DNA of 64,000 nt, from assembly GCA_046116545.1 (NCBI GenBank), contig CP175956.1:160276-224275 (forward strand), in the 5' to 3' direction. The notes under the pieces are model-generated. The model had not been told where the DNA came from. It ran no database searches and saw nothing but the letters and a program-made list of their open reading frames with translations. Below, in pieces: positions 41,593 through 48,230 of the stretch. A program made the translations under genes and the position numbers. This stretch comes from Candidatus Moraniibacteriota bacterium (lineage in GTDB: Bacteria > Patescibacteriota > Minisyncoccia > Moranbacterales > GCA-2747515). The stretch's first letter is position 1. Every line of letters begins with the position of its first letter.

Positions 41593-42444
41593 ATGAAAAA
41601 AATTATGAAAAAATATTGTTATATTAATGGAAGAATTATAGAAGAAAAAAATGCTTGTATAAGTCCCCATGATCTAGGAGTACTGCGAGGCTATGGTGTA
41701 TTTGATTTTATGTGTACAGCTACTGAAAATAAACCCTTCCTGTTAACTGATCACTGGAATAGACTTGGTAGAAGTGCAAAATCATTAGGACTATTACTCC
41801 CTATTTCAAAAACTGAATATGAAAAAATAATAAATAAATTACTTACAAAAAACGGTTACAAAAATTCTGCAATTCGTACAGTTCTTACTGCTGGTGTCAG
41901 CAATAACGGTATCACGCTTCCCCAAAAACCAACTTTTTATATACTGATTCATAATATAACTAAAATGCTTCCTGAAAAAAAACTATATGAAAATGGTGCA
42001 AAAATAATAACACATGATTTTGCAAGAGATAATTATGCAAGTAAAACAACAAACTACATCGAAGCAATAAAAAATCAAAAAGAAAAAAATCGCCGTGGCG
42101 CAATAGAAATATTATATATAGATAAAAGTAATGTACTTGAATGTACAACTAGTAATATTTTTATTATCAAAAATAATAAACTGATGACACCATCTGAAGG
42201 TATTTTACCCGGAATAACTCGTAAATTAATATTAAAACTTGCTGAGAAAAATAAAATCAATGTTATCAAAGAGAAAATAACTAAAAAACAATTACTGAAT
42301 GCTGATGAAATCTTTTTAACAGGATCGGCTAAACACATTTTACCAATCACAAAAATAGACTCTCAAAAGATTGGTAATGGAAATGTCGGTAAATTAACGA
42401 AAGAAATTTCAACTCTATATTCTGATTATTTCAATAACTATTAA
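41593..42444 (+). CDS. Class IV (D-amino acid/branched-chain) aminotransferase family protein
   Basis: Fold-type IV PLP pattern: GVLRGYGVFDF...EIFLTGSA. Confidence 0.75.
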   Translation: MKKIMKKYCYINGRIIEEKNACISPHDLGVLRGYGVFDFMCTATENKPFLLTDHWNRLGRSAKSLGLLLPISKTEYEKIINKLLTKNGYKNSAIRTVLTAGVSNNGITLPQKPTFYILIHNITKMLPEKKLYENGAKIITHDFARDNYASKTTNYIEAIKNQKEKNRRGAIEILYIDKSNVLECTTSNIFIIKNNKLMTPSEGILPGITRKLILKLAEKNKINVIKEKITKKQLLNADEIFLTGSAKHILPITKIDSQKIGNGNVGKLTKEISTLYSDYFNNY

Positions 42445-42969: not shown

Positions 42970-43875
42970 CTATTTACATATACTAAACCACTCCTTTGTA
43001 TCTATACTATTTTCTGAAATAACCTCAGAGAATATGTCTTTTAATTCTTTCACACTTTTTGTATCAAATAGTATTTCCTGACCATCCTCTAAAACTATTT
43101 TTTTGATAGGTGTTATTTCAGAAGCAGTTCCTGTAAAAAAAGCTCCTTTAAATTTCTTTATATCCTTTGGAAATATCTCTATTTCACTAATTTCATAATT
43201 CAAATCTATACCTAACTCAATAACAGACTGTCTTGTTATACCTGCTAAGATCTTTCCTTTACGTGGAGTTATAATTTTTTTACCATCAACAAAAAATATA
43301 TTAGCTACAGATCCTTCTGCTATTGCGCCGTTATGATCCAATAGCAATGGCTCATCAAAGTTATTTTTCTTTGCGTCAGCAGATGCCATAAATGAATTAA
43401 TATAATGACCAGAAATTTTTGCATCACAGACAGTGCTTTTTTCTGATATTCTGGCAAATGGGGATATTTTGACATTTACCTCATCAGCTAAATATTTTGG
43501 CCAAGGAAATGCAGTTATGAAAATATTTGTTTTATTCATACCAATCCTCATGCCGAGTGCAGAGTCGTCAAAATAAATAAGTGGTCGTATGTACGCCGAT
43601 TCTAAATTATTTTTTTGCATTAAAACTTTACAAATTTCATTAATTTCATCCTTAGTTTCACTAATTTCTAATCCCAATTTATCAGCAGAATAAAATAATC
43701 TATTAGTATGCTCCTGCAATCTAAATATACCTGTTCCTTTTTTTATTTTATAAGCTCTAATTCCTTCAAAAACACCTGTTCCATAATGAAGTCCATGCGT
43801 CATAGGTGAGATATTAGCATCTTCTAATTTTAAATATTCACCATTTAAATAAACTATTAATTTTTTATCAAACAT
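42970..43875 (-). CDS. ilvE: Branched-chain-amino-acid aminotransferase-like (class IV)
   Basis: LNGEYLKLEDANISPMTHGLHYGTGVFEGIRAY. Confidence 0.8.
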   Translation of the reverse strand: MFDKKLIVYLNGEYLKLEDANISPMTHGLHYGTGVFEGIRAYKIKKGTGIFRLQEHTNRLFYSADKLGLEISETKDEINEICKVLMQKNNLESAYIRPLIYFDDSALGMRIGMNKTNIFITAFPWPKYLADEVNVKISPFARISEKSTVCDAKISGHYINSFMASADAKKNNFDEPLLLDHNGAIAEGSVANIFFVDGKKIITPRKGKILAGITRQSVIELGIDLNYEISEIEIFPKDIKKFKGAFFTGTASEITPIKKIVLEDGQEILFDTKSVKELKDIFSEVISENSIDTKEWFSICK

Positions 43876-43880
43876 ATTTA

Positions 43881-44678
43881 TTATCTAACAATATTATAAC
43901 TACCTAAAATTGTAACATCTACAAAAGTATTTAGAAATTCAAAAGCGTCTTTCATGTTTTCATCTTCCATGCATCCATCCAAATCCAAATAAAAAATATA
44001 ATCATTCATTTTTTCGCCTGTCGGAATTGATTCTATCTTTGTAAGGTTTAGATTCTTTATTTTAAAAACAGAAAGTATTTCAAATAAAAGACCTGATCTA
44101 TCCGTAGTTGGTTTTATAATTACAGAAGTTTTTTCTCCACTTGTTTTTTTAACTTTTTTAGATATTTCTATAAATCTAGTTACATTTTTATCTTTATTAC
44201 TTATATTTTGCTCTATTACACTTAATTTGTAATAATTTGCCGCATCATTACTGCCTATTGCTGCAATAGATGCATCGGCTGATGCTATTTCCATTGCTTT
44301 TGATGTTGAAGATGCTTCAATGACACTAATCCCCTGCTTACGCATTTCATCAACATATTCATTACATTGCACAAGTGCTTGTGCATGTGACATTATAGTT
44401 GTAAATTCATCTCCTTGAGAAGCTAATACATGCTCTATAGAATAATCAAAAGCATTTACTATACTTACCTCATTTTGCTGCAATGCCAAAAATGTTTCTC
44501 GCACAGAACCATTTATCATATTTTCTATAGGCACTATCCCATGACTAGTGTCTGATAAATTATCAAATACTGCACTTATTGTATCAACTGGTTCAATATC
44601 TAATTTTTCATAATTTACCAGTGCTACATTATAAGAATAACTAAATTTTGGACCAAGTGTAATTATTTTATCTATCAT
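43881..44678 (-). CDS. pheA: Prephenate dehydratase
   Basis: PDT domain plus C-terminal ACT domain (ESIPTGEK...YIFYLDLDG). Confidence 0.8.
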   Translation of the reverse strand: MIDKIITLGPKFSYSYNVALVNYEKLDIEPVDTISAVFDNLSDTSHGIVPIENMINGSVRETFLALQQNEVSIVNAFDYSIEHVLASQGDEFTTIMSHAQALVQCNEYVDEMRKQGISVIEASSTSKAMEIASADASIAAIGSNDAANYYKLSVIEQNISNKDKNVTRFIEISKKVKKTSGEKTSVIIKPTTDRSGLLFEILSVFKIKNLNLTKIESIPTGEKMNDYIFYLDLDGCMEDENMKDAFEFLNTFVDVTILGSYNIVR

Positions 44679-45505
44679 GATAATGTTTTTATTAATTTAT
44701 CTGTAATTTCCATTGAGCGCGTTGCCATATTTCCAAAATATTTTTTACTCTTACTGAAAATTTTATTAAACTTATTTTCATCAGATATATCAACTGATTG
44801 AAATAGCTCATCTACTGACTCTTTATATTTTATTGCAACCTCTTTTGCAAATGGATTATACATTTGCATATCAGTATAAAGATCTGCATCCTGTGCCAAT
44901 ATTCTACCAACTCCATACAATCTCATCAAATATACAGGAGTAGCTATTGATTCACCCACCTCTAAATTATAATGTAATTTTTCAAGAGTTGATCCAAGTG
45001 ATAATGCTGAAAAATGAGTAAGACATTGAATCACTGCCATATTTTTATCATGTTCTTCTTTTGTCATCTCCAAAACATTCAACCCAAGTGATTTCAAAAA
45101 ATTAATATACCAATCAGTATAACTTCCACCTTGCTCATTACAAATAATAAAGTTTTGTTTTTTGAAATCTGTTGTTGGACCAAATAATGGATGTCCTCCT
45201 ATGATTTCAATATCATCCCTTACTTCCTGTATCATTGCATCCATTGGCTTTATTTTAACAGATGTAAAATCTGTAACCATACTTCCCTTTTTCACAACTG
45301 GCATTATACTTTTAATAACTGCTTCAGTATCTCTAATCGGTACAGTAACTATTATAACATCACCGATTCTAGCAACTTCTTCATTTGTTAATTTAGTATC
45401 AGCATCCGCAATCAAAACTTCAAAGCCTCGCTTATGAAACTCATGGGCAAATTTACTACCCATTTTCCCATTACCTCCTATAATTGATATAATTTTTGGT
45501 TTCAT
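44675..45505 (-). CDS. tyrA: Prephenate dehydrogenase
   Basis: KIISIIGGNGKMGSKFA Rossmann motif; the 4-nt ATGA overlap with pheA points to an operon. Confidence 0.8.
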   Translation of the reverse strand: MKPKIISIIGGNGKMGSKFAHEFHKRGFEVLIADADTKLTNEEVARIGDVIIVTVPIRDTEAVIKSIMPVVKKGSMVTDFTSVKIKPMDAMIQEVRDDIEIIGGHPLFGPTTDFKKQNFIICNEQGGSYTDWYINFLKSLGLNVLEMTKEEHDKNMAVIQCLTHFSALSLGSTLEKLHYNLEVGESIATPVYLMRLYGVGRILAQDADLYTDMQMYNPFAKEVAIKYKESVDELFQSVDISDENKFNKIFSKSKKYFGNMATRSMEITDKLIKTLS

Positions 45506-45537
45506 ATTTTTTACTTTTTTATCTAAAATTTTAAATT

Positions 45538-45576
45538 ATTTATCATACGAGCAACATTGTGCTCGTATGATAAATT
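45538..45576 (-). terminator. Strong rho-independent terminator after the small acidic protein gene
   Basis: 15-bp stem TTTATCATACGAGCA-ACATTG-TGCTCGTATGATAAA. Confidence 0.8.
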
Positions 45577-45586
45577 TATGTTTATA

Positions 45587-45739
45587 CTACCAATGACCAG
45601 TAATGCCGGATTTTTCCTTGAGCGTTTCTGGTTCGGGACCAAATCCAGCATCGTCTGACACATTTTCTTCACGATTTTCAACATCAACACTTAACTCAAT
45701 ACTTCTTTCATCTTTTTCTTCTACTTTACTGTCTGACAT
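45587..45739 (-). CDS. Small acidic protein (50 aa), unknown family
   Basis: Not in the ORF track (<60 aa). AGGAGA SD lies 6 nt before the ATG; MSDSKVEEKDERSIELSVDVENREENVSDDAGFGPEPETLKEKSGITGHW; flanked by the leader element and a terminator. Confidence 0.65.
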   Translation of the reverse strand: MSDSKVEEKDERSIELSVDVENREENVSDDAGFGPEPETLKEKSGITGHW

Positions 45740-45763
45740 TTTTAATCTCCTATTTTGTATAAT

Positions 45764-45860
45764 ATAAACAAAAAACCCATCTCACTATTGAGATCGGCTT
45801 ACTTTTGCTAACAATACTATCTTATCTACATCACATTACGAGCAAAAACAAACTGATCTC
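45764..45860 (-). promoter_or_regulatory. Conserved ~97-nt 5'-leader RNA element, copy 1 (terminator/antiterminator; candidate riboswitch or attenuator)
   Basis: About 97% identical to 46651..46747; contains the hairpin CCGATCTCA-ATAG-TGAGATGGG plus a U-tract 37 nt upstream of the start codon; the 5' GAGATC can pair with the terminator's 5' arm. Confidence 0.7.
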
Positions 45861-45954
45861 TTTTAATAAAGAAACCTATAAACCAAAAATACCAATATTG
45901 ATTTGTTGTTACTTGTTTTTGCATTTCACAAAAATAATATTTAACATATTTATA

Positions 45955-45982
45955 ATTATACATACCAAATTTATTTTGTCAA
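45955..45982 (-). promoter_or_regulatory. Sigma70-type promoter TTGACA-N16-TATAAT driving the leader and small acidic protein gene
   Basis: Minus strand: TTGACAAAATAAATTTGGTATGTATAAT. Confidence 0.7.
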
Positions 45983-46024
45983 AAAAATAAATCCCACCAA
46001 TCTATCAATGTAGATTGGTGGGAT
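45983..46024 (-). terminator. Rho-independent terminator after the 84-aa gene
   Basis: TCCCACCAATCTA-CATTGA-TAGATTGGTGGGA followed by TTTATTTTTTT. Confidence 0.85.
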
Positions 46025-46031
46025 AACTGTT

Positions 46032-46286
46032 TTATAACAACATTACTTTTTCATGAACTGTGCTACATCTTTGATTAACTATCAAAACACAAGAAGCAAA
46101 GGGACATTTTTTACCCTCAATTTTTTCTAAACAAAACGCACTACCAGCCAAGACAATATCACACTTCAATCCTGTCTGAATAGCCCTAGGTCTACTTACG
46201 GTACATTTTTTACCAGCCAAATTCTGACCTGCTAATCCTTCTGCTCTTAAAACTTGTTTTTCACCTACTGCTCCTGCTCCAGCCAT
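46032..46286 (-). CDS. Small Cys-containing protein (84 aa), unknown family, with two GKKC motifs
   Basis: GAGGAG SD; MAGAGAVGEKQVLRAEGLAGQNLAGKKCTVS...EGKKCPFASC; second gene downstream of leader copy 2. Confidence 0.65.
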   Translation of the reverse strand: MAGAGAVGEKQVLRAEGLAGQNLAGKKCTVSRPRAIQTGLKCDIVLAGSAFCLEKIEGKKCPFASCVLIVNQRCSTVHEKVMLL

Positions 46287-46312
46287 TTTAAGCTCCTCTT
46301 TTTTTAAAAAAC

Positions 46313-46621
46313 TTACATTTTAATTGGTGAATCATAATCTTCAAATGGAAATGCCTCAGTACACTCAACGCCTTTAATGATATTTACATTGCCATTAGCA
46401 TTAAAAGCAATGTAAACAGCGTCTCCAAAACATTTCTTAGCTCCAATACATCTATGTTGCAGAGCTTTTCGTGAACCTGTAATTCCAATTGCAGTAATAG
46501 TATCGCCATAATTAGTAACAGAATCAGTAACACATACAACTTGCGCTTCATCATCACTAAGTTGCTGTACGCTATTATTATCCATAATCTTATTTTTAAC
46601 AACATTAGGAATGCACATCAT
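46313..46621 (-). CDS. Small Cys-containing protein (103 aa from the second in-frame ATG), unknown family, with a GAKKC motif
   Basis: AAGGAGAAA SD directly before ATGATG (the track ORF starts 27 nt upstream at 46648); first gene downstream of leader copy 2. Confidence 0.65.
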   Translation of the reverse strand: MMCIPNVVKNKIMDNNSVQQLSDDEAQVVCVTDSVTNYGDTITAIGITGSRKALQHRCIGAKKCFGDAVYIAFNANGNVNIIKGVECTEAFPFEDYDSPIKM

Positions 46622-46650
46622 TTTCTCCTTTTTTTTAAGTAACTGCATTT

Positions 46651-46747
46651 ATAAAACAAAAACCCATCTCACTATTGAGACCGGCTTACTTTTGCTAACA
46701 ATATTATCTTATCTACATCACATTACGAGCAAAAACAAACTGATCTC
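46651..46747 (-). promoter_or_regulatory. Conserved ~97-nt 5'-leader RNA element, copy 2
   Basis: Same element as 45764..45860; hairpin CCGGTCTCA-ATAG-TGAGATGGG plus a U-tract 42 nt upstream of the ATG; a TGTATAAT box lies upstream at about 46775-46790. Confidence 0.7.
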
Positions 46748-46928
46748 TCTGACTAATCAGCAGGACCAACAACAAAATCATTTCCAGAATGTTTGTTATT
46801 TGTTTACTCACAAATTCAATATTATTGATTAACAATTTGATTATACAAAATCATAATATTTTGTCAAATCATTATATGTTGTAATGCACTGGAATTTTTT
46901 AAAATTACTTGATATAATATATCTACAT

Positions 46929-48230
46929 ATGAATAAAAAAAATACATACAAAAATATTTCAAACTTACTCGCAATTTTAACTATTTGTCTATCTTTTTTA
47001 GTATTACAAAATTCATTGCTAGTATTTGCAGCTGATGATGTAGATGAAGAAGAAAAAGAAGAAATACTTGATGATAAAGAAGATGAATTAGAAAAATTAG
47101 AAAAGAAAGAAAAAAAGTACCGTGATATCATAAATTTAAAACAAAAAGAACAAGATATCATAAATGCTCAAATTAGAAAATTAGAAAATGAAAATTCAAA
47201 AATAAAAGATACGATTGAAGATAATGAAAGTGATATAGAAGAACTATCTCAAGAAATCTCAAGAACGAAAAGTGAAATTGAGCAAAAAGAAAATCACATT
47301 TCTATTCAAAAAAAGATCCTTCGACAATTTATACGTGAGAAATATCAAAATTATTCAGAAGATTCTAAACATTTTGCACTATTGAATGTTGCTAATAAAT
47401 ATAATAATTCACATAGAGACAATATTTCATATGCAACTGAAAAAGTTGGTGAATTTGTAAAAACAATACACACTGAACAACAATCTTTGCAAAAAGATAG
47501 AGAAGAATTTGAAGAAAAATCTAAAAAAATTGAGGACGAAAAATATAAACTTGAACAACGTAGTGAGTATCTCAATAGTTCAAAAGACTACAAAAGAGTT
47601 CTTGCTAGTCAAGTAAATGTTGAAGAAGATAAATATCAGACAAAATTATCAAAAGTTTTAGAAAAACAACGGAATATACAACAAGAATTAGATGAGCTAC
47701 GTATTGGTAATATTTCAAAATTAGACCTAAGTTCATTACCTGATAGAAAGCATGGCTTATTTGCATATCCTGTGAAAAAAGTATTCATTACACAAAACTA
47801 CGGAAACACAGCTTTTGCTAATAGCTCAACTTTTTATAATTTTCATACAGGTGTAGATTTTGGGGTATCAGCTGGAACATCTGTTTACTCAGTTGCAAAA
47901 GGTAAAGTTGTTGATACTAATTTCACAGACTACGCTTATGGTGGATGGGTTGCAATTGAACATGAACTTGATGATAAAAAAATTATAACTTTCTATGGAC
48001 ACTTAAGTAAATTGTCAGTGAAAAAGGGTGAGAAAGTGAAAAAGGGTGAGAAAATAGGTAATTCAGGAGGTATTCCAGGAACACCTGGATCTGGAAATAC
48101 AACTGGAGCACATTTACATTTTGGCGCATATCAAGCAAAAGGTTTTTATATAAAATATTCAAAATACAGCAGCAATGTTAAATTACCACCTGATGGACTT
48201 GATATAAATCCATCATGGTACCTTCCATAG
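46929..48230 (+). CDS. EnvC-like coiled-coil M23 (LytM) metallopeptidase
   Basis: Signal peptide MNKKNTYKNISNLLAILTICLSFLVL; long coiled-coil; HTGVDFGVSAGTSVYSVAKGKV...GHLS...GNSG...TGAHLHFG. The track ORF starts at 46884. Confidence 0.8.
   Translation: MNKKNTYKNISNLLAILTICLSFLVLQNSLLVFAADDVDEEEKEEILDDKEDELEKLEKKEKKYRDIINLKQKEQDIINAQIRKLENENSKIKDTIEDNESDIEELSQEISRTKSEIEQKENHISIQKKILRQFIREKYQNYSEDSKHFALLNVANKYNNSHRDNISYATEKVGEFVKTIHTEQQSLQKDREEFEEKSKKIEDEKYKLEQRSEYLNSSKDYKRVLASQVNVEEDKYQTKLSKVLEKQRNIQQELDELRIGNISKLDLSSLPDRKHGLFAYPVKKVFITQNYGNTAFANSSTFYNFHTGVDFGVSAGTSVYSVAKGKVVDTNFTDYAYGGWVAIEHELDDKKIITFYGHLSKLSVKKGEKVKKGEKIGNSGGIPGTPGSGNTTGAHLHFGAYQAKGFYIKYSKYSSNVKLPPDGLDINPSWYLP

What the first reader, a model, noticed from the sequence alone, without database searches (positions are those of the whole stretch)
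45538..46800. Duplicated ~97-nt leader RNA with terminator/antiterminator architecture upstream of two small-protein transcription units
Two direct copies (45764..45860 and 46651..46747, minus strand) share about 97% identity; the flanks are unrelated. Each copy ends in a terminator-like hairpin (CCGATCTCA-ATAG-TGAGATGGG followed by a U-tract) 37-42 nt before an SD and ATG. Copy 2 is not downstream of any co-oriented gene, so that hairpin cannot be a plain end-of-gene terminator. The 5' end of the element (GAGAUC) is complementary to the terminator's 5' arm. A 13-bp internal stem (GUUUGUUUUUGCU/AGCAAAAGUAAGC) would extend this into a ~19-bp antiterminator helix that closes a conserved 31-nt apical loop (CGUAAUGUGAUGUAGAUAAGAUAAUAUUGUU). 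This is the classic geometry of a riboswitch or protein/RNA-mediated attenuator. Copy 1 sits in a ~220-nt 5' UTR behind a canonical TTGACA-N16-TATAAT promoter. The sequence does not resemble the common riboswitch classes I can recall (TPP, SAM, FMN, glycine, fluoride, guanidine, Mn).
Basis: seen in the sequence. Interest (0 to 1): 0.85.

Follow-up and report, generated by a model that had tools for sequence, protein, structure and literature searches.

The report
Duplicated leader-peptide attenuator in a CPR bacterium
The duplicated 97-nt element is most likely the switch part of two related leader-peptide attenuators, a classic amino-acid-sensing mechanism that I found no report of in candidate-phyla-radiation bacteria; one copy has an aromatic-rich leader ahead of Tyr/Phe synthesis genes and the other a leucine-rich leader ahead of orphan small proteins.

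Summary
The repeat is real: two copies on the minus strand, 45764-45860 and 46651-46747, with none expected by chance. The terminator/antiterminator geometry is also real. Each copy lies behind its own perfect TTGACA-N16-TATAAT promoter, and a 32-codon ORF runs into the 5' arm and stops in the apical loop.

- Copy 1 encodes MQKQVTTNQYWYFWFIGFFIKRDQFVFARNVM and precedes a small ORF plus tyrA-pheA-aminotransferase.
- Copy 2 encodes (M)SKQITNILEMILLLVLLISQRDQFVFARNVM and precedes two orphan Cys-rich ORFs.

Thirteen further homologous leaders came from relatives of this Candidatus Moraniibacteriota genome, giving 15 in all.

- Only this frame stays open, indels are multiples of three, and pN/pS is about 0.1-0.4.
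- The aromatic or Leu identity of the central codons persists through synonymous changes.
- The antiterminator is 96.9% paired and the terminator 97.9%; both show compensatory changes.
- The loop after the stop codon varies in sequence and length, which argues against an aptamer.
- There is no Rfam match.

Verdict: classical ribosome-mediated transcription attenuation, a new family of a known kind. It is not a riboswitch and not a mobile repeat. What the Leu-type copy controls is unknown. No transcript data were available.

The parts
46840..46867 (-). Copy-2 promoter, TTGACA-N16-TATAAT (12/12 match)
   Evidence: A consensus-like promoter lies 27-30 nt upstream of the leader start codon in 14 of the 15 homologous leaders, and 7 nt upstream in L013_c2.
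46713..46811 (-). Copy-2 leader ORF: GTG start, 32 codons, (M)SKQITNILEMILLLVLLISQRDQFVFARNVM, TAG stop in the apical loop
   Evidence: It is the only frame open in all homologues. The start position is kept as ATG or GTG. pN/pS is well below 1.
46755..46790 (-). Copy-2 putative regulatory codon block (codons 8-19, ILEMILLLVLLI: 6 Leu, 3 Ile, 1 Val)
   Evidence: Leu identity is kept through synonymous switches among TTG, TTA, CTG, CTA and CTT in L004, L009 and L008, and in the diverged L013_c2 and L017.
46798..46809 (-). Copy-2 segment 1 (start-codon region), partly complementary to segment 2
   Evidence: the 1:2 helix is 92% paired over 13 leaders. The c2 type has two mismatches.
46720..46747 (-). 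Copy-2 segment 2: 5' arm of the antiterminator (GAGAUC, GUUUGUUUUUGCU, GUAAUGU). It also encodes R-D-Q-F-V-F-A-R-N-V.
46677..46704 (-). Copy-2 segment 3: 3' arm of the antiterminator. Its last 10 nt are also the 5' arm of the terminator.
46657..46686 (-). Copy-2 intrinsic terminator (segments 3:4) with U-tract
46313..46621 (-). First gene controlled by copy 2: orphan 101/102-aa Cys-containing protein with a strong AAGGAG Shine-Dalgarno (SD) sequence
   Evidence: No Pfam, NCBIfam or PDB match. Nine representatives in 1.84 billion proteins.
46032..46286 (-). Second gene controlled by copy 2: orphan 84-aa protein with six Cys
45991..46024 (.). Terminator hairpin that closes the copy-2 unit, immediately upstream of the copy-1 promoter
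   Evidence: The sub-threshold PyrG_leader hit is this hairpin.
45955..45982 (-). Copy-1 promoter, TTGACA-N16-TATAAT (12/12 match)
45826..45924 (-). Copy-1 leader ORF: ATG start, 32 codons, MQKQVTTNQYWYFWFIGFFIKRDQFVFARNVM, TAG stop in the apical loop
45868..45897 (-). Copy-1 putative regulatory codon block (codons 10-19, YWYFWFIGFF: 8 of 10 aromatic)
   Evidence: Conserved in 8 species with synonymous TAT/TAC and TTT/TTC changes. Position confirmed.
45911..45922 (-). Copy-1 segment 1: GCAAAAACAAGU (start codon G plus codons 2-5), complementary to GUUUGUUUUUGC of segment 2
   Evidence: The full-leader minimum-free-energy (MFE) fold is 1:2 plus 3:4.
45833..45860 (-). Copy-1 segment 2: 5' arm of the antiterminator
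45790..45817 (-). Copy-1 segment 3: 3' arm of the antiterminator, overlapping the terminator 5' arm
45770..45799 (-). Copy-1 intrinsic terminator (3:4) with U6 tract
45587..45739 (-). SD-led 50-aa ORF downstream of copy 1. In relatives it always ends in G-x-W or GW.
45538..45575 (-). Conserved 16-bp hairpin between the small ORF and tyrA; role unknown
   Evidence: The base is conserved and the top covaries in 8 relatives.
42970..45505 (-). tyrA (44675-45505), pheA (43881-44678) and class IV aminotransferase (42970-43875): the presumed biosynthetic cargo of copy 1
   Evidence: Pfam. The same synteny occurs in all relatives that carry the leader. No minus-strand promoter-like site lies between 45740 and 45505.

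Best explanation
Each copy is a classical ribosome-mediated (leader-peptide) transcription attenuator.

Anatomy. Transcription starts about 22 nt upstream of a 32-codon leader ORF. Four RNA segments can pair in alternative ways:
- Segment 1 is the start-codon region.
- Segment 2 is the end of the ORF.
- Segment 3 lies after the stop codon.
- Segment 4 is followed by a U-tract.

Proposed mechanism.
1. With ample charged tRNA, the ribosome runs to the stop codon in the apical loop. It then covers the 3' part of segment 2. Segment 3 pairs with segment 4, and RNA polymerase terminates before the SD-led genes.
2. When the cognate charged tRNAs are scarce, the ribosome stalls in the central codon block. 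That block is Tyr/Trp/Phe codons in copy 1 and Leu/Ile/Val codons in copy 2. Segment 2 is then free and pairs with segment 3 in a roughly 26-bp antiterminator, and polymerase reads through.
3. Without any translation, 1:2 plus 3:4 form and the transcript terminates.

Cargo. Copy 1 would couple aromatic amino-acid supply to a small ORF and, probably, to tyrA-pheA-aminotransferase. Copy 2 uses the same switch with a Leu-rich sensor block to control two orphan small proteins.

Shown versus inferred. Shown: the ORF, its coding-type conservation, the three helices and their covariation, and the promoters. Inferred: ribosome stalling, premature termination, and co-transcription with tyrA.
For: 1. 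ORF. In 13 leaders only one frame is open; the other two frames carry 1-5 stops each. Peptides are 29-33 aa, and alignment gaps within the ORF are multiples of 3.
2. Coding signature outside the helices (codons 2-22). pS is 0.70 against pN 0.07 for W_c1 versus L004_c1. pS is 0.38 against pN 0.06 for W_c2 versus L004_c2. All 11 pairs have pN below pS. Third positions vary most: 17 against 10 and 10 in c1, 13 against 9 and 8 in c2.
3. Codon blocks.
   - c1 type: YWYFWFIGFF, YLYFWFMSFF, WYFWFLF and WYYFWFYF are kept ahead of tyrA-pheA in 8 species.
   - c2 type: the Leu runs ILLLVLL, ILLLILLL, TLLLILL, ELLLALL and ELLLLLLTLSALL persist although the codons change.
4. Segment 2 shows almost no synonymous variation, as expected for a stretch constrained both as RNA and as coding sequence.
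5. Antiterminator.
   - 97.6% of cells are paired in 13 sequences, against 39-62% when partners are slid.
   - RNAalifold independently gives the same helix.
   - With 15 sequences, 96.9% are paired, 7 pairs change on both sides, and 0 of 500 shuffles reach this.
   - The outer helix was not part of the model used to build that alignment.
6. Terminator.
   - 100% and 90.9% paired in MAFFT sub-alignments, with compensatory CCG/CGG to CUG/CAG and AUCUC/GAGAU to AUUUC/GAAAU changes.
   - With 15 sequences, 97.9% are paired, 6 of 10 pairs change on both sides, and 0 of 500 shuffles reach this.
7. The same segment-3 nucleotides covary with partners in both segment 2 and segment 4 (L010_c2, L013_c2, L017).
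8. The 1:2 helix is 92% paired against 44-59% slid. The full-leader MFE is 1:2 plus 3:4 in 6 of the 8 c1 leaders, including a shortened 1:2 in L010_c1, and also in L013_c2 and L017.
9. Masked folding in which no pair may span the ribosome. With a ribosome at the stop codon, the terminator forms in 15 of 15. With a ribosome stalled at codon 13, the full antiterminator forms without the terminator in 11 of 15.
10. The loop after the stop codon varies in sequence and length.
11. A consensus-like promoter precedes all 15 leaders.
12. SD-less starts appear normal in this genome: 5 of 50 long ORFs have an SD-like motif.
Against: - There are no transcript, Term-seq or ribosome-profiling data. Stalling and premature termination are inferred.
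- The leader ORFs have no Shine-Dalgarno sequence, and most c2-type ORFs start with GTG.
- In this AT-rich DNA, codon composition alone is weak evidence. Five loci in the window reach at least 8 of 10 aromatic codons in some frame, and 248 windows reach at least 5 of 8 Leu. The argument rests on conservation, not on composition.
- The genes behind the Leu-type leader have no known link to Leu or branched-chain amino acids. They also differ between relatives: 101 aa plus 84 aa; 370 aa plus an FGase-family protein; 65 aa.
- Trp codons are conserved in copy 1 although no trp gene is in the operon.
- A strong conserved hairpin (45538-45575) lies between the small ORF and tyrA, so co-transcription of tyrA-pheA is not proven.
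- In 4 of 15 leaders, equilibrium folding keeps the terminator next to the inner helix even with a stalled ribosome.
- If pairs may span the ribosome, W_c1 stays in the 1:2 plus 3:4 state.
Confidence: 0.8

Rival explanations
1. Riboswitch or protein- or RNA-mediated attenuator. A ligand or factor binds the apical part of the long helix and shifts the terminator/antiterminator balance. The ORF is incidental.
For: The mutually exclusive helices are real and conserved. There is no Rfam match, so a new class cannot be excluded by homology. AAUAUUGUU on the 3' side of the apical region is invariant.
Against: - The frame is open in every homologue, indels come in threes, and pN is far below pS. A riboswitch predicts none of this.
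- The invariant AAUAUUGUU is explained by pairing with GUAAUGU.
- The only unpaired stretch varies in length and sequence.
- There is no multi-stem junction or pseudoknot.
- The two paralogues differ exactly in the codon block, not in the structured part.
Confidence: 0.06
2. The 32-aa ORFs encode functional hydrophobic micro-proteins. The hairpin is simply their terminator, and downstream genes are expressed by leaky read-through.
For: Purifying selection acts on the whole peptide. The peptide has a conserved N-terminus, MQKQ-type (MQKQ, MSKQ, MNKQ; MKKQ in L013_c2), and a conserved C-terminus, FVFARN-type. Its core is hydrophobic.
Against: - The hydrophobic core is only 11-13 residues.
- The conserved N- and C-terminal codons show almost no synonymous change. 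This points to RNA-level constraint from helices 1:2 and 2:3.
- A plain terminator does not need a covarying antiterminator that pairs the coding region with the terminator arm.
- The downstream SD-led genes have no promoter of their own.
- The aromatic version sits ahead of tyrA-pheA in all 8 species that have it.
Confidence: 0.06
3. Translation-arrest leader that senses something other than amino-acid supply, such as an antibiotic or another ribosome stress, as in ermCL, bmrB or msrDL. The conserved C-terminal RDQFVFARNV would act as the arrest peptide.
For: The C-terminal motif is shared by both paralogues and by all species. Ribosome-mediated attenuators of this kind exist in Firmicutes (PMC4191407 and PMC10314930, listed). 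The cargo of copy 2 is unknown.
Against: - A stall at the C-terminal codons would cover segment 2 and favour termination, not induction.
- The motif's nucleotides are invariant even at synonymous sites, which fits RNA pairing.
- The paralogue-specific aromatic and Leu blocks, and the tyrA-pheA cargo, fit amino-acid sensing.
Confidence: 0.05
4. Mobile or selfish repeat (MITE or REP), or a pair of trans-acting small-RNA genes that end at the terminator.
For: The window holds two near-identical copies. One metagenome contig (L007) joins the two copies, which shows they can recombine or mis-assemble. The terminated leader would be a roughly 175-nt RNA.
Against: - There are only two copies in 64 kb, in the same orientation. 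Each lies between a promoter and an SD-led gene.
- The same positions are occupied in relatives: both sites in five further species and the tyrA site in seven.
- There are no terminal inverted repeats or target-site duplications.
- The translated ORF is conserved.
Confidence: 0.02

Closest known systems
E. coli pheA attenuator (pheL leader peptide; Rfam Phe_leader)
   Same: - A short leader ORF with a run of aromatic codons lies ahead of a prephenate dehydratase gene.
- It uses 1:2, 2:3 and 3:4 alternative pairings and an intrinsic terminator.
- A stalled ribosome frees segment 2 (mechanism as described in PMC3082878).
   Different: - There is no sequence or covariance-model similarity.
- The sensor block mixes Tyr, Trp and Phe codons instead of a pure Phe run.
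- The operon holds tyrA, pheA and an aminotransferase, preceded by an extra small ORF and a hairpin.
- Segment 1 includes the start codon, and there is no SD.
- The host is a CPR bacterium. pheL is reported mainly in gamma-proteobacteria, with a few cases elsewhere (PMC3082878).
E. coli and Salmonella leu and ilv attenuators (leuL, ilvL, ivbL leader peptides)
   Same: Copy 2 has a leader peptide rich in Leu, Ile and Val, followed by the same terminator/antiterminator logic (my own knowledge of these systems).
   Different: The downstream genes are not leu or ilv genes. They are orphan small Cys-rich proteins, or other unknown genes in relatives. There is no homology to the Rfam Leu_leader family.
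Predicted classical attenuators of Actinobacteria (trp, leuS, ilv; Seliverstov et al. 2005, PMC1262725)
   Same: These are comparative-genomics predictions of leader peptides with regulatory codons overlapping terminator and antiterminator helices, outside Proteobacteria. Nucleotides involved in several pairings are conserved.
   Different: The phylum and the sequences differ. The same paper warns that some actinobacterial leader peptides did not behave as classical attenuators when mutated. That warning applies here too, above all to copy 2.
Riboswitches with terminator/antiterminator expression platforms
   Same: Both have a 5' leader with an intrinsic terminator and a competing helix.
   Different: Here there is no conserved ligand-binding aptamer. 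The conserved parts are explained by coding and by helices, and a translated ORF occupies the 5' arm.

Membership tests
Classical ribosome-mediated (leader-peptide) transcription attenuator | A short translated ORF lies between the promoter and the first structural gene | tested here: met
   The leader ORFs have 29-41 codons: 29-33 in 14 of them, and 41 or 43 in L017 depending on which ATG is used. Each starts 27-30 nt after the -10 hexamer (7 nt in L013_c2). Only this frame is open in the 13 leaders tested (other frames not checked for L013_c2 and L017), indels come in threes, and pN is far below pS. Translation itself was not observed.
Classical ribosome-mediated (leader-peptide) transcription attenuator | The leader ORF is enriched in codons for the amino acid(s) made by the controlled operon | tested here: met
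   Copy 1 has 8 of 10 aromatic codons ahead of tyrA-pheA, conserved in 8 species with synonymous changes. For copy 2 the Leu run is conserved, but the cargo has no known link to Leu, so that half is inconclusive.
Classical ribosome-mediated (leader-peptide) transcription attenuator | An intrinsic terminator (hairpin plus U-tract) lies upstream of the structural genes | tested here: met
   A 10-bp hairpin with a U5-U8 tract. It is 97.9% paired in 15 sequences, and 6 pairs show compensatory change.
Classical ribosome-mediated (leader-peptide) transcription attenuator | An antiterminator helix (2:3) is mutually exclusive with the terminator and overlaps the end of the leader ORF | tested here: met
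   A 26-bp helix, 96.9-97.6% paired, with 7 pairs changed on both sides. It shares about 10 nt with the terminator 5' arm.
Classical ribosome-mediated (leader-peptide) transcription attenuator | An anti-antiterminator or pause helix (1:2) involves the leader coding region | tested here: inconclusive
   The start-codon region pairs with segment 2. This helix is 92% paired against 44-59% slid, and it is the MFE state in most c1 leaders. Segment 2 is invariant, so no covariation is possible. The c2 type and L010 have mismatches.
Classical ribosome-mediated (leader-peptide) transcription attenuator | The stop codon is placed so that a terminating ribosome masks segment 2, while one stalled at the regulatory codons leaves it free | tested here: met
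   The stop codon lies 10-25 nt after the inner 5' arm in all leaders. The regulatory block ends 7 nt before segment 2 in the window copies. In masked folding the terminator forms in 15 of 15 with a ribosome at the stop codon, and the antiterminator forms in 11 of 15 with a stall at codon 13.
Classical ribosome-mediated (leader-peptide) transcription attenuator | Premature termination is relieved by shortage of the cognate charged tRNA | not testable with these tools
   This needs Term-seq, reporter assays or coupled in vitro transcription-translation.
Rfam leader families (Phe_leader, Leu_leader, Trp_leader, His_leader, Thr_leader) and T-box | A match to the family covariance model | tested here: not met
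   No such family appears even at E-value up to 10 over 45400-47000. At gathering scores the window matches only two tRNAs.
Riboswitch | A conserved ligand-binding aptamer with conserved unpaired or junction nucleotides, independent of translation | tested here: not met
   The structure is a single long helix. The terminal loop after the stop codon varies in sequence and length. The conserved positions are explained by codons and pairs.
MITE or REP-type repeat | Many copies, in both orientations, with no fixed relation to genes | tested here: not met
   The window holds two copies, both on the sense strand between a promoter and an SD-led gene, at syntenic positions in relatives. Only 64 kb of the 1.29 Mb genome could be scanned.

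The most novel reading that the evidence does not exclude
The element may be a modular attenuator cassette. One terminator/antiterminator platform would be kept similar between paralogues by gene conversion. Its central codon block could be swapped to retarget the switch from aromatic amino acids to leucine. In the Leu-type copy, amino-acid starvation would induce orphan Cys-rich small proteins instead of biosynthetic enzymes. In an amino-acid-dependent CPR symbiont, such proteins might act on the host or on nutrient acquisition.
Probability: 0.15. Interest if true: 0.7.

Novelty: new member of a known kind. Interest (0 to 1): 0.45.

Why it matters
- Almost nothing is known about gene regulation in candidate-phyla-radiation bacteria. 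Full-text searches found no paper that links attenuators or leader peptides with Patescibacteria.
- A classical attenuator implies tight transcription-translation coupling and sensing of tRNA charging in these tiny-genome organisms.
- It also marks tyrA-pheA-aminotransferase as a regulated, and therefore used, pathway in a lineage usually described as auxotrophic.
- The paralogous pair shows how an attenuator can be retargeted by changing only its codon block.
- The Leu-type copy flags orphan small proteins as starvation-induced candidates.
- It is a practical warning that 'orphan riboswitch' candidates should be checked for leader ORFs.

Tried and rejected
- Rfam at gathering scores and at E-value up to 10 found no family for the element. 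A sub-threshold PyrG_leader hit at 45981-46060 is only the upstream terminator.
- A viral-contig scan for the loop sequence found nothing.
- The homologue search with the 102-aa protein found only itself. The three contigs that carry it are identical strains and gave no variation.
- The metagenome scan with a wobble-degenerate pattern found one contig, L007. It is a c2/c1 chimera and was not used for statistics.
The extended profile found one close and one distant member.
- Cargo of copy 2:
  - Pfam, NCBIfam and PDB gave nothing.
  - The single-sequence AlphaFold model had pLDDT 42 and was unusable, so no fold search was run.
  - The exhaustive HMMER search gave 9 representatives. One of them, a eukaryotic plectin-like protein, is judged spurious.
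- Composition statistics for the aromatic and Leu runs in the window alone are not compelling in this AT-rich DNA.
- Equilibrium folding with a masked ribosome, allowing pairs to span the ribosome, gave an ambiguous switch. Forbidding such pairs gave the expected result in most leaders.
- A TRAP-like (G/U)AG repeat reading of the loop was considered. It was dropped because the loop is not conserved.
Full report
**Observation**

On the minus strand the window carries two copies of a 97-nt element, at 45764-45860 and 46651-46747. They differ at 2 of the first 90 positions and 4 of 97. A 42-nt core pattern with up to three mismatches occurs exactly twice in 64 kb, and shuffles give none. nhmmer and a covariance model find no other sense-strand copy in the window.

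Each copy folds into a long helix of 6 bp, a 1-nt gap, and 13 bp. Its 3' arm overlaps the 5' arm of a hairpin followed by a U-tract. Three points need correcting.

- Both copies, not only copy 1, lie 93-95 nt downstream of a perfect TTGACA-N16-TATAAT promoter, at 46867-46840 and 45982-45955.
- The sequence between promoter and core is related in the two copies.
- The '31-nt apical loop' is partly helix and partly coding, as shown below.

**Organism and relatives**

The three small proteins downstream are recorded for a Candidatus Moraniibacteriota MAG with a 1.286 Mb contig. This is a member of the CPR, also called Patescibacteria.

Contigs that carry the identical 101-aa protein were identical in the element, so I looked for diverged relatives through tyrA.

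- Relatives with 66-75% TyrA identity share the synteny M23 peptidase, (copy-2 unit), copy 1, small ORF, tyrA, pheA, class IV aminotransferase.
- All of them carry the element: L004, L008, L009, L010 and L013 have two copies each, L011 and L014 have one, and L012 has a partial copy at a contig end.
- TyrA relatives at 58-62% identity have a different synteny and no element (L015, L016, L018, L019).
- A profile of the leader peptides found one more distant member, L017, on a short Logan contig. nhmmer (E = 7e-8) and the covariance model (E = 6e-6) also recognised it.

**The missed feature: a leader ORF**

In both window copies an ORF starts about 22 nt after the predicted transcription start. 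It runs through the 5' arm of the long helix and stops at UAG in the apical region.

- Copy 1: MQKQVTTNQYWYFWFIGFFIKRDQFVFARNVM (45924-45826).
- Copy 2: GTG start, (M)SKQITNILEMILLLVLLISQRDQFVFARNVM (46811-46713).

Evidence that it is a real coding frame:

- In the 13 leaders first collected, this is the only frame without stops. The other frames have 1-5 stops each.
- The peptides are 29-33 aa long, gaps within the ORF are multiples of three, and the start position is kept as ATG or GTG.
- In codons 2-22, outside the long helix, substitutions look like coding sequence. For W_c1 versus L004_c1, pS is 0.70 and pN 0.07. For W_c2 versus L004_c2, pS is 0.38 and pN 0.06. In all 11 pairs pN is below pS, and third positions vary most.
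- The codons that form the 5' arm (CAG TTT GTT TTT GCT CGT AAT) show almost no synonymous change. That is expected if they are constrained both as RNA and as codons.

**Sensor blocks**

The two paralogue types differ mainly in the central block.

- c1 type, always ahead of the small ORF and tyrA-pheA: YWYFWFIGFF, YLYFWFMSFF, WYFWFLF, WYYFWFYF. Synonymous TAT/TAC and TTT/TTC changes occur.
- c2 type: ILEMILLLVLLI, ILEIILLLILLL, ILDITLLLILLGI. The diverged members have IELLLALLI (L013_c2) and ELLLLLLTLSALL (L017). Leu codons switch among TTG, TTA, CTG, CTA and CTT.

Composition alone is weak evidence in this AT-rich DNA. Five loci in the window reach at least 8 of 10 aromatic codons in some frame, and Leu-rich windows are common. 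The weight comes from conservation across species and from position.

**RNA structures**

- Antiterminator (2:3). The full helix has 26 pairs. These include seven apical pairs that explain the invariant AAUAUUGUU.
  - It is 97.6% paired in the MAFFT alignment of 13 leaders, against 39-62% when partners are slid.
  - RNAalifold predicts the same helix on its own.
- Terminator (3:4). In two MAFFT sub-alignments it is 90.9% and 100% paired. Compensatory changes include CCG/CGG to CUG/CAG and AUCUC/GAGAU to AUUUC/GAAAU.
- Covariance-model alignment of 15 leaders. The model contained only the inner and apical helix and the terminator.
  - The antiterminator is 96.9% paired, with 7 pairs changed on both sides.
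  - The terminator is 97.9% paired, with 6 of 10 pairs changed on both sides.
  - For both, 0 of 500 shuffles reach the observed values.
  - Caveat: this alignment is fitted to the model. The outer antiterminator helix was not in the model, so it is the more independent test.
- Segment-3 positions covary with partners in both segment 2 and segment 4. Examples are GAAAUU/GAUUUC/GAAAU in L010_c2, GAGGUC/GACCUC/AGGUCGA in L013_c2, and GGUCGG/CCGGCC/GGUCGG in L017.
- Anti-antiterminator (1:2). The start-codon region GCAAAAACAAGU is complementary to GUUUGUUUUUGC of segment 2.
  - It is 92% paired against 44-59% slid. No covariation is possible because segment 2 is invariant.
  - For most c1 leaders, and for L013_c2 and L017, the MFE of the whole leader is 1:2 plus 3:4.
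- Local hairpin. In nearly all leaders a further hairpin pairs the last regulatory codons with the start of segment 2, using different sequences in the two types.
- Terminal loop. The loop after the stop codon differs in sequence and length between relatives.

**Mechanism**

These parts are the four segments of a classical attenuator.

- With the ribosome at the stop codon, and no pair allowed to span it, the terminator is the predicted fold in 15 of 15 leaders.
- With a ribosome stalled at codon 13, the full antiterminator forms without the terminator in 11 of 15. In the other four the inner helix and the terminator coexist.
- If pairs may span the ribosome, the result is ambiguous.
- The missing Shine-Dalgarno sequence is not a strong objection. 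Only 5 of 50 long ORFs in the window have an SD-like motif upstream (a crude count). One relative, L013_c2, looks leaderless.

I conclude that limitation for aromatic amino acids (copy 1) or for Leu and other branched-chain amino acids (copy 2) stalls the ribosome and allows read-through. Translation to the stop codon, or no translation at all, gives termination. Stalling, termination and co-transcription of tyrA are inferred, not shown.

**Comparison with known systems**

- The logic is that of the E. coli pheA/pheL attenuator (PMC3082878) and of the leu and ilv attenuators.
- Predicted attenuators outside Proteobacteria exist in Actinobacteria. The authors warn that some candidate leader peptides failed mutational tests (PMC1262725).
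- There is no covariance-model match to any Rfam leader family or to T-box.
- Full-text searches found no paper on attenuators or leader peptides in Patescibacteria.
- I file it as a new family of a known kind.

Unusual points are:

- the mixed Tyr/Trp/Phe block for a joint tyrA-pheA operon;
- segment 1 including the start codon;
- two paralogous cassettes 887 nt apart that share one expression platform but differ in the codon block;
- hints of gene conversion: core identity between the two copies is 95% in the window genome, against 88-93% to orthologues.

**Open points**

- The cargo of the Leu-type copy is unknown and variable. In the window it is a 101-aa and an 84-aa Cys-rich protein. In L010 it is a 370-aa protein plus an FGase-family protein. 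In L013 it is a 65-aa protein.
- For the 101-aa protein there is no family or PDB match, the AlphaFold model is unusable, and only 9 representatives exist in 1.84 billion proteins.
- A conserved covarying hairpin lies between the small ORF and tyrA. It could be a second control point.

Noticed in passing
window 45538-45575 (minus strand); also L004, L008-L014: A 14-16 bp hairpin lies between the small SD-led ORF and tyrA in every relative. Its base (AUCAUrc/gyAUGAU) is conserved and its top covaries. The window has no clean U-tract; L004 and L009 have U7 a few nt downstream. It may be a partial terminator, a processing site or a second control point.
   Followed up: partly
window 45587-45739 (minus strand): The 44-57-aa ORF between the copy-1 leader and tyrA has a strong SD and is poorly conserved. 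It always ends in G-x-W or GW followed by stop, and often contains DAGFGPEP. It has no family match.
   Followed up: partly
L007 1-1383 (Ga0164318_10315564): This metagenome contig joins the copy-2 promoter and Leu-type leader directly to the copy-1 loop, small ORF and tyrA. The two Cys-rich genes and the aromatic leader are missing. It is either a natural recombination between the repeats or an assembly collapse.
   Followed up: no
window 45764-45860 versus 46651-46747; L008 1773-1869 versus 2654-2744: Core identity between the two copies within one genome is 95% in the window and 89% in L008. This equals or exceeds identity to orthologous copies in other genomes, which suggests gene conversion. 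It is not seen in L010 or L013.
   Followed up: partly
window, whole: Only 5 of 50 long ORFs have an SD-like 4-mer upstream of their first ATG. The three small ORFs downstream of the leaders all have a strong AGGAG-type SD (a crude count).
   Followed up: no
window 46313-46621 and 46032-46286 (minus strand): The 101-aa and 84-aa Cys-rich proteins form tiny orphan families. The 101-aa protein has 9 representatives in 1.84 billion proteins and an AlphaFold pLDDT of 42. In L004 the second protein is shortened to 55 aa.
   Followed up: partly
L017 840-1035: Downstream of the distant Leu-type leader lie a possible 23-codon ORF and a second long hairpin (AAGACCGACUUU...AAAGUCGGUCUU) before the next SD-led gene. 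That gene is cut off by the contig end.
   Followed up: no
window 41593-42444 (+) and 42970-43875 (-): Two class IV (branched-chain-type) aminotransferase genes flank the tyrA-pheA operon in this genome and in most relatives that carry the leader. This may matter for what the Leu-type leader senses.
   Followed up: no
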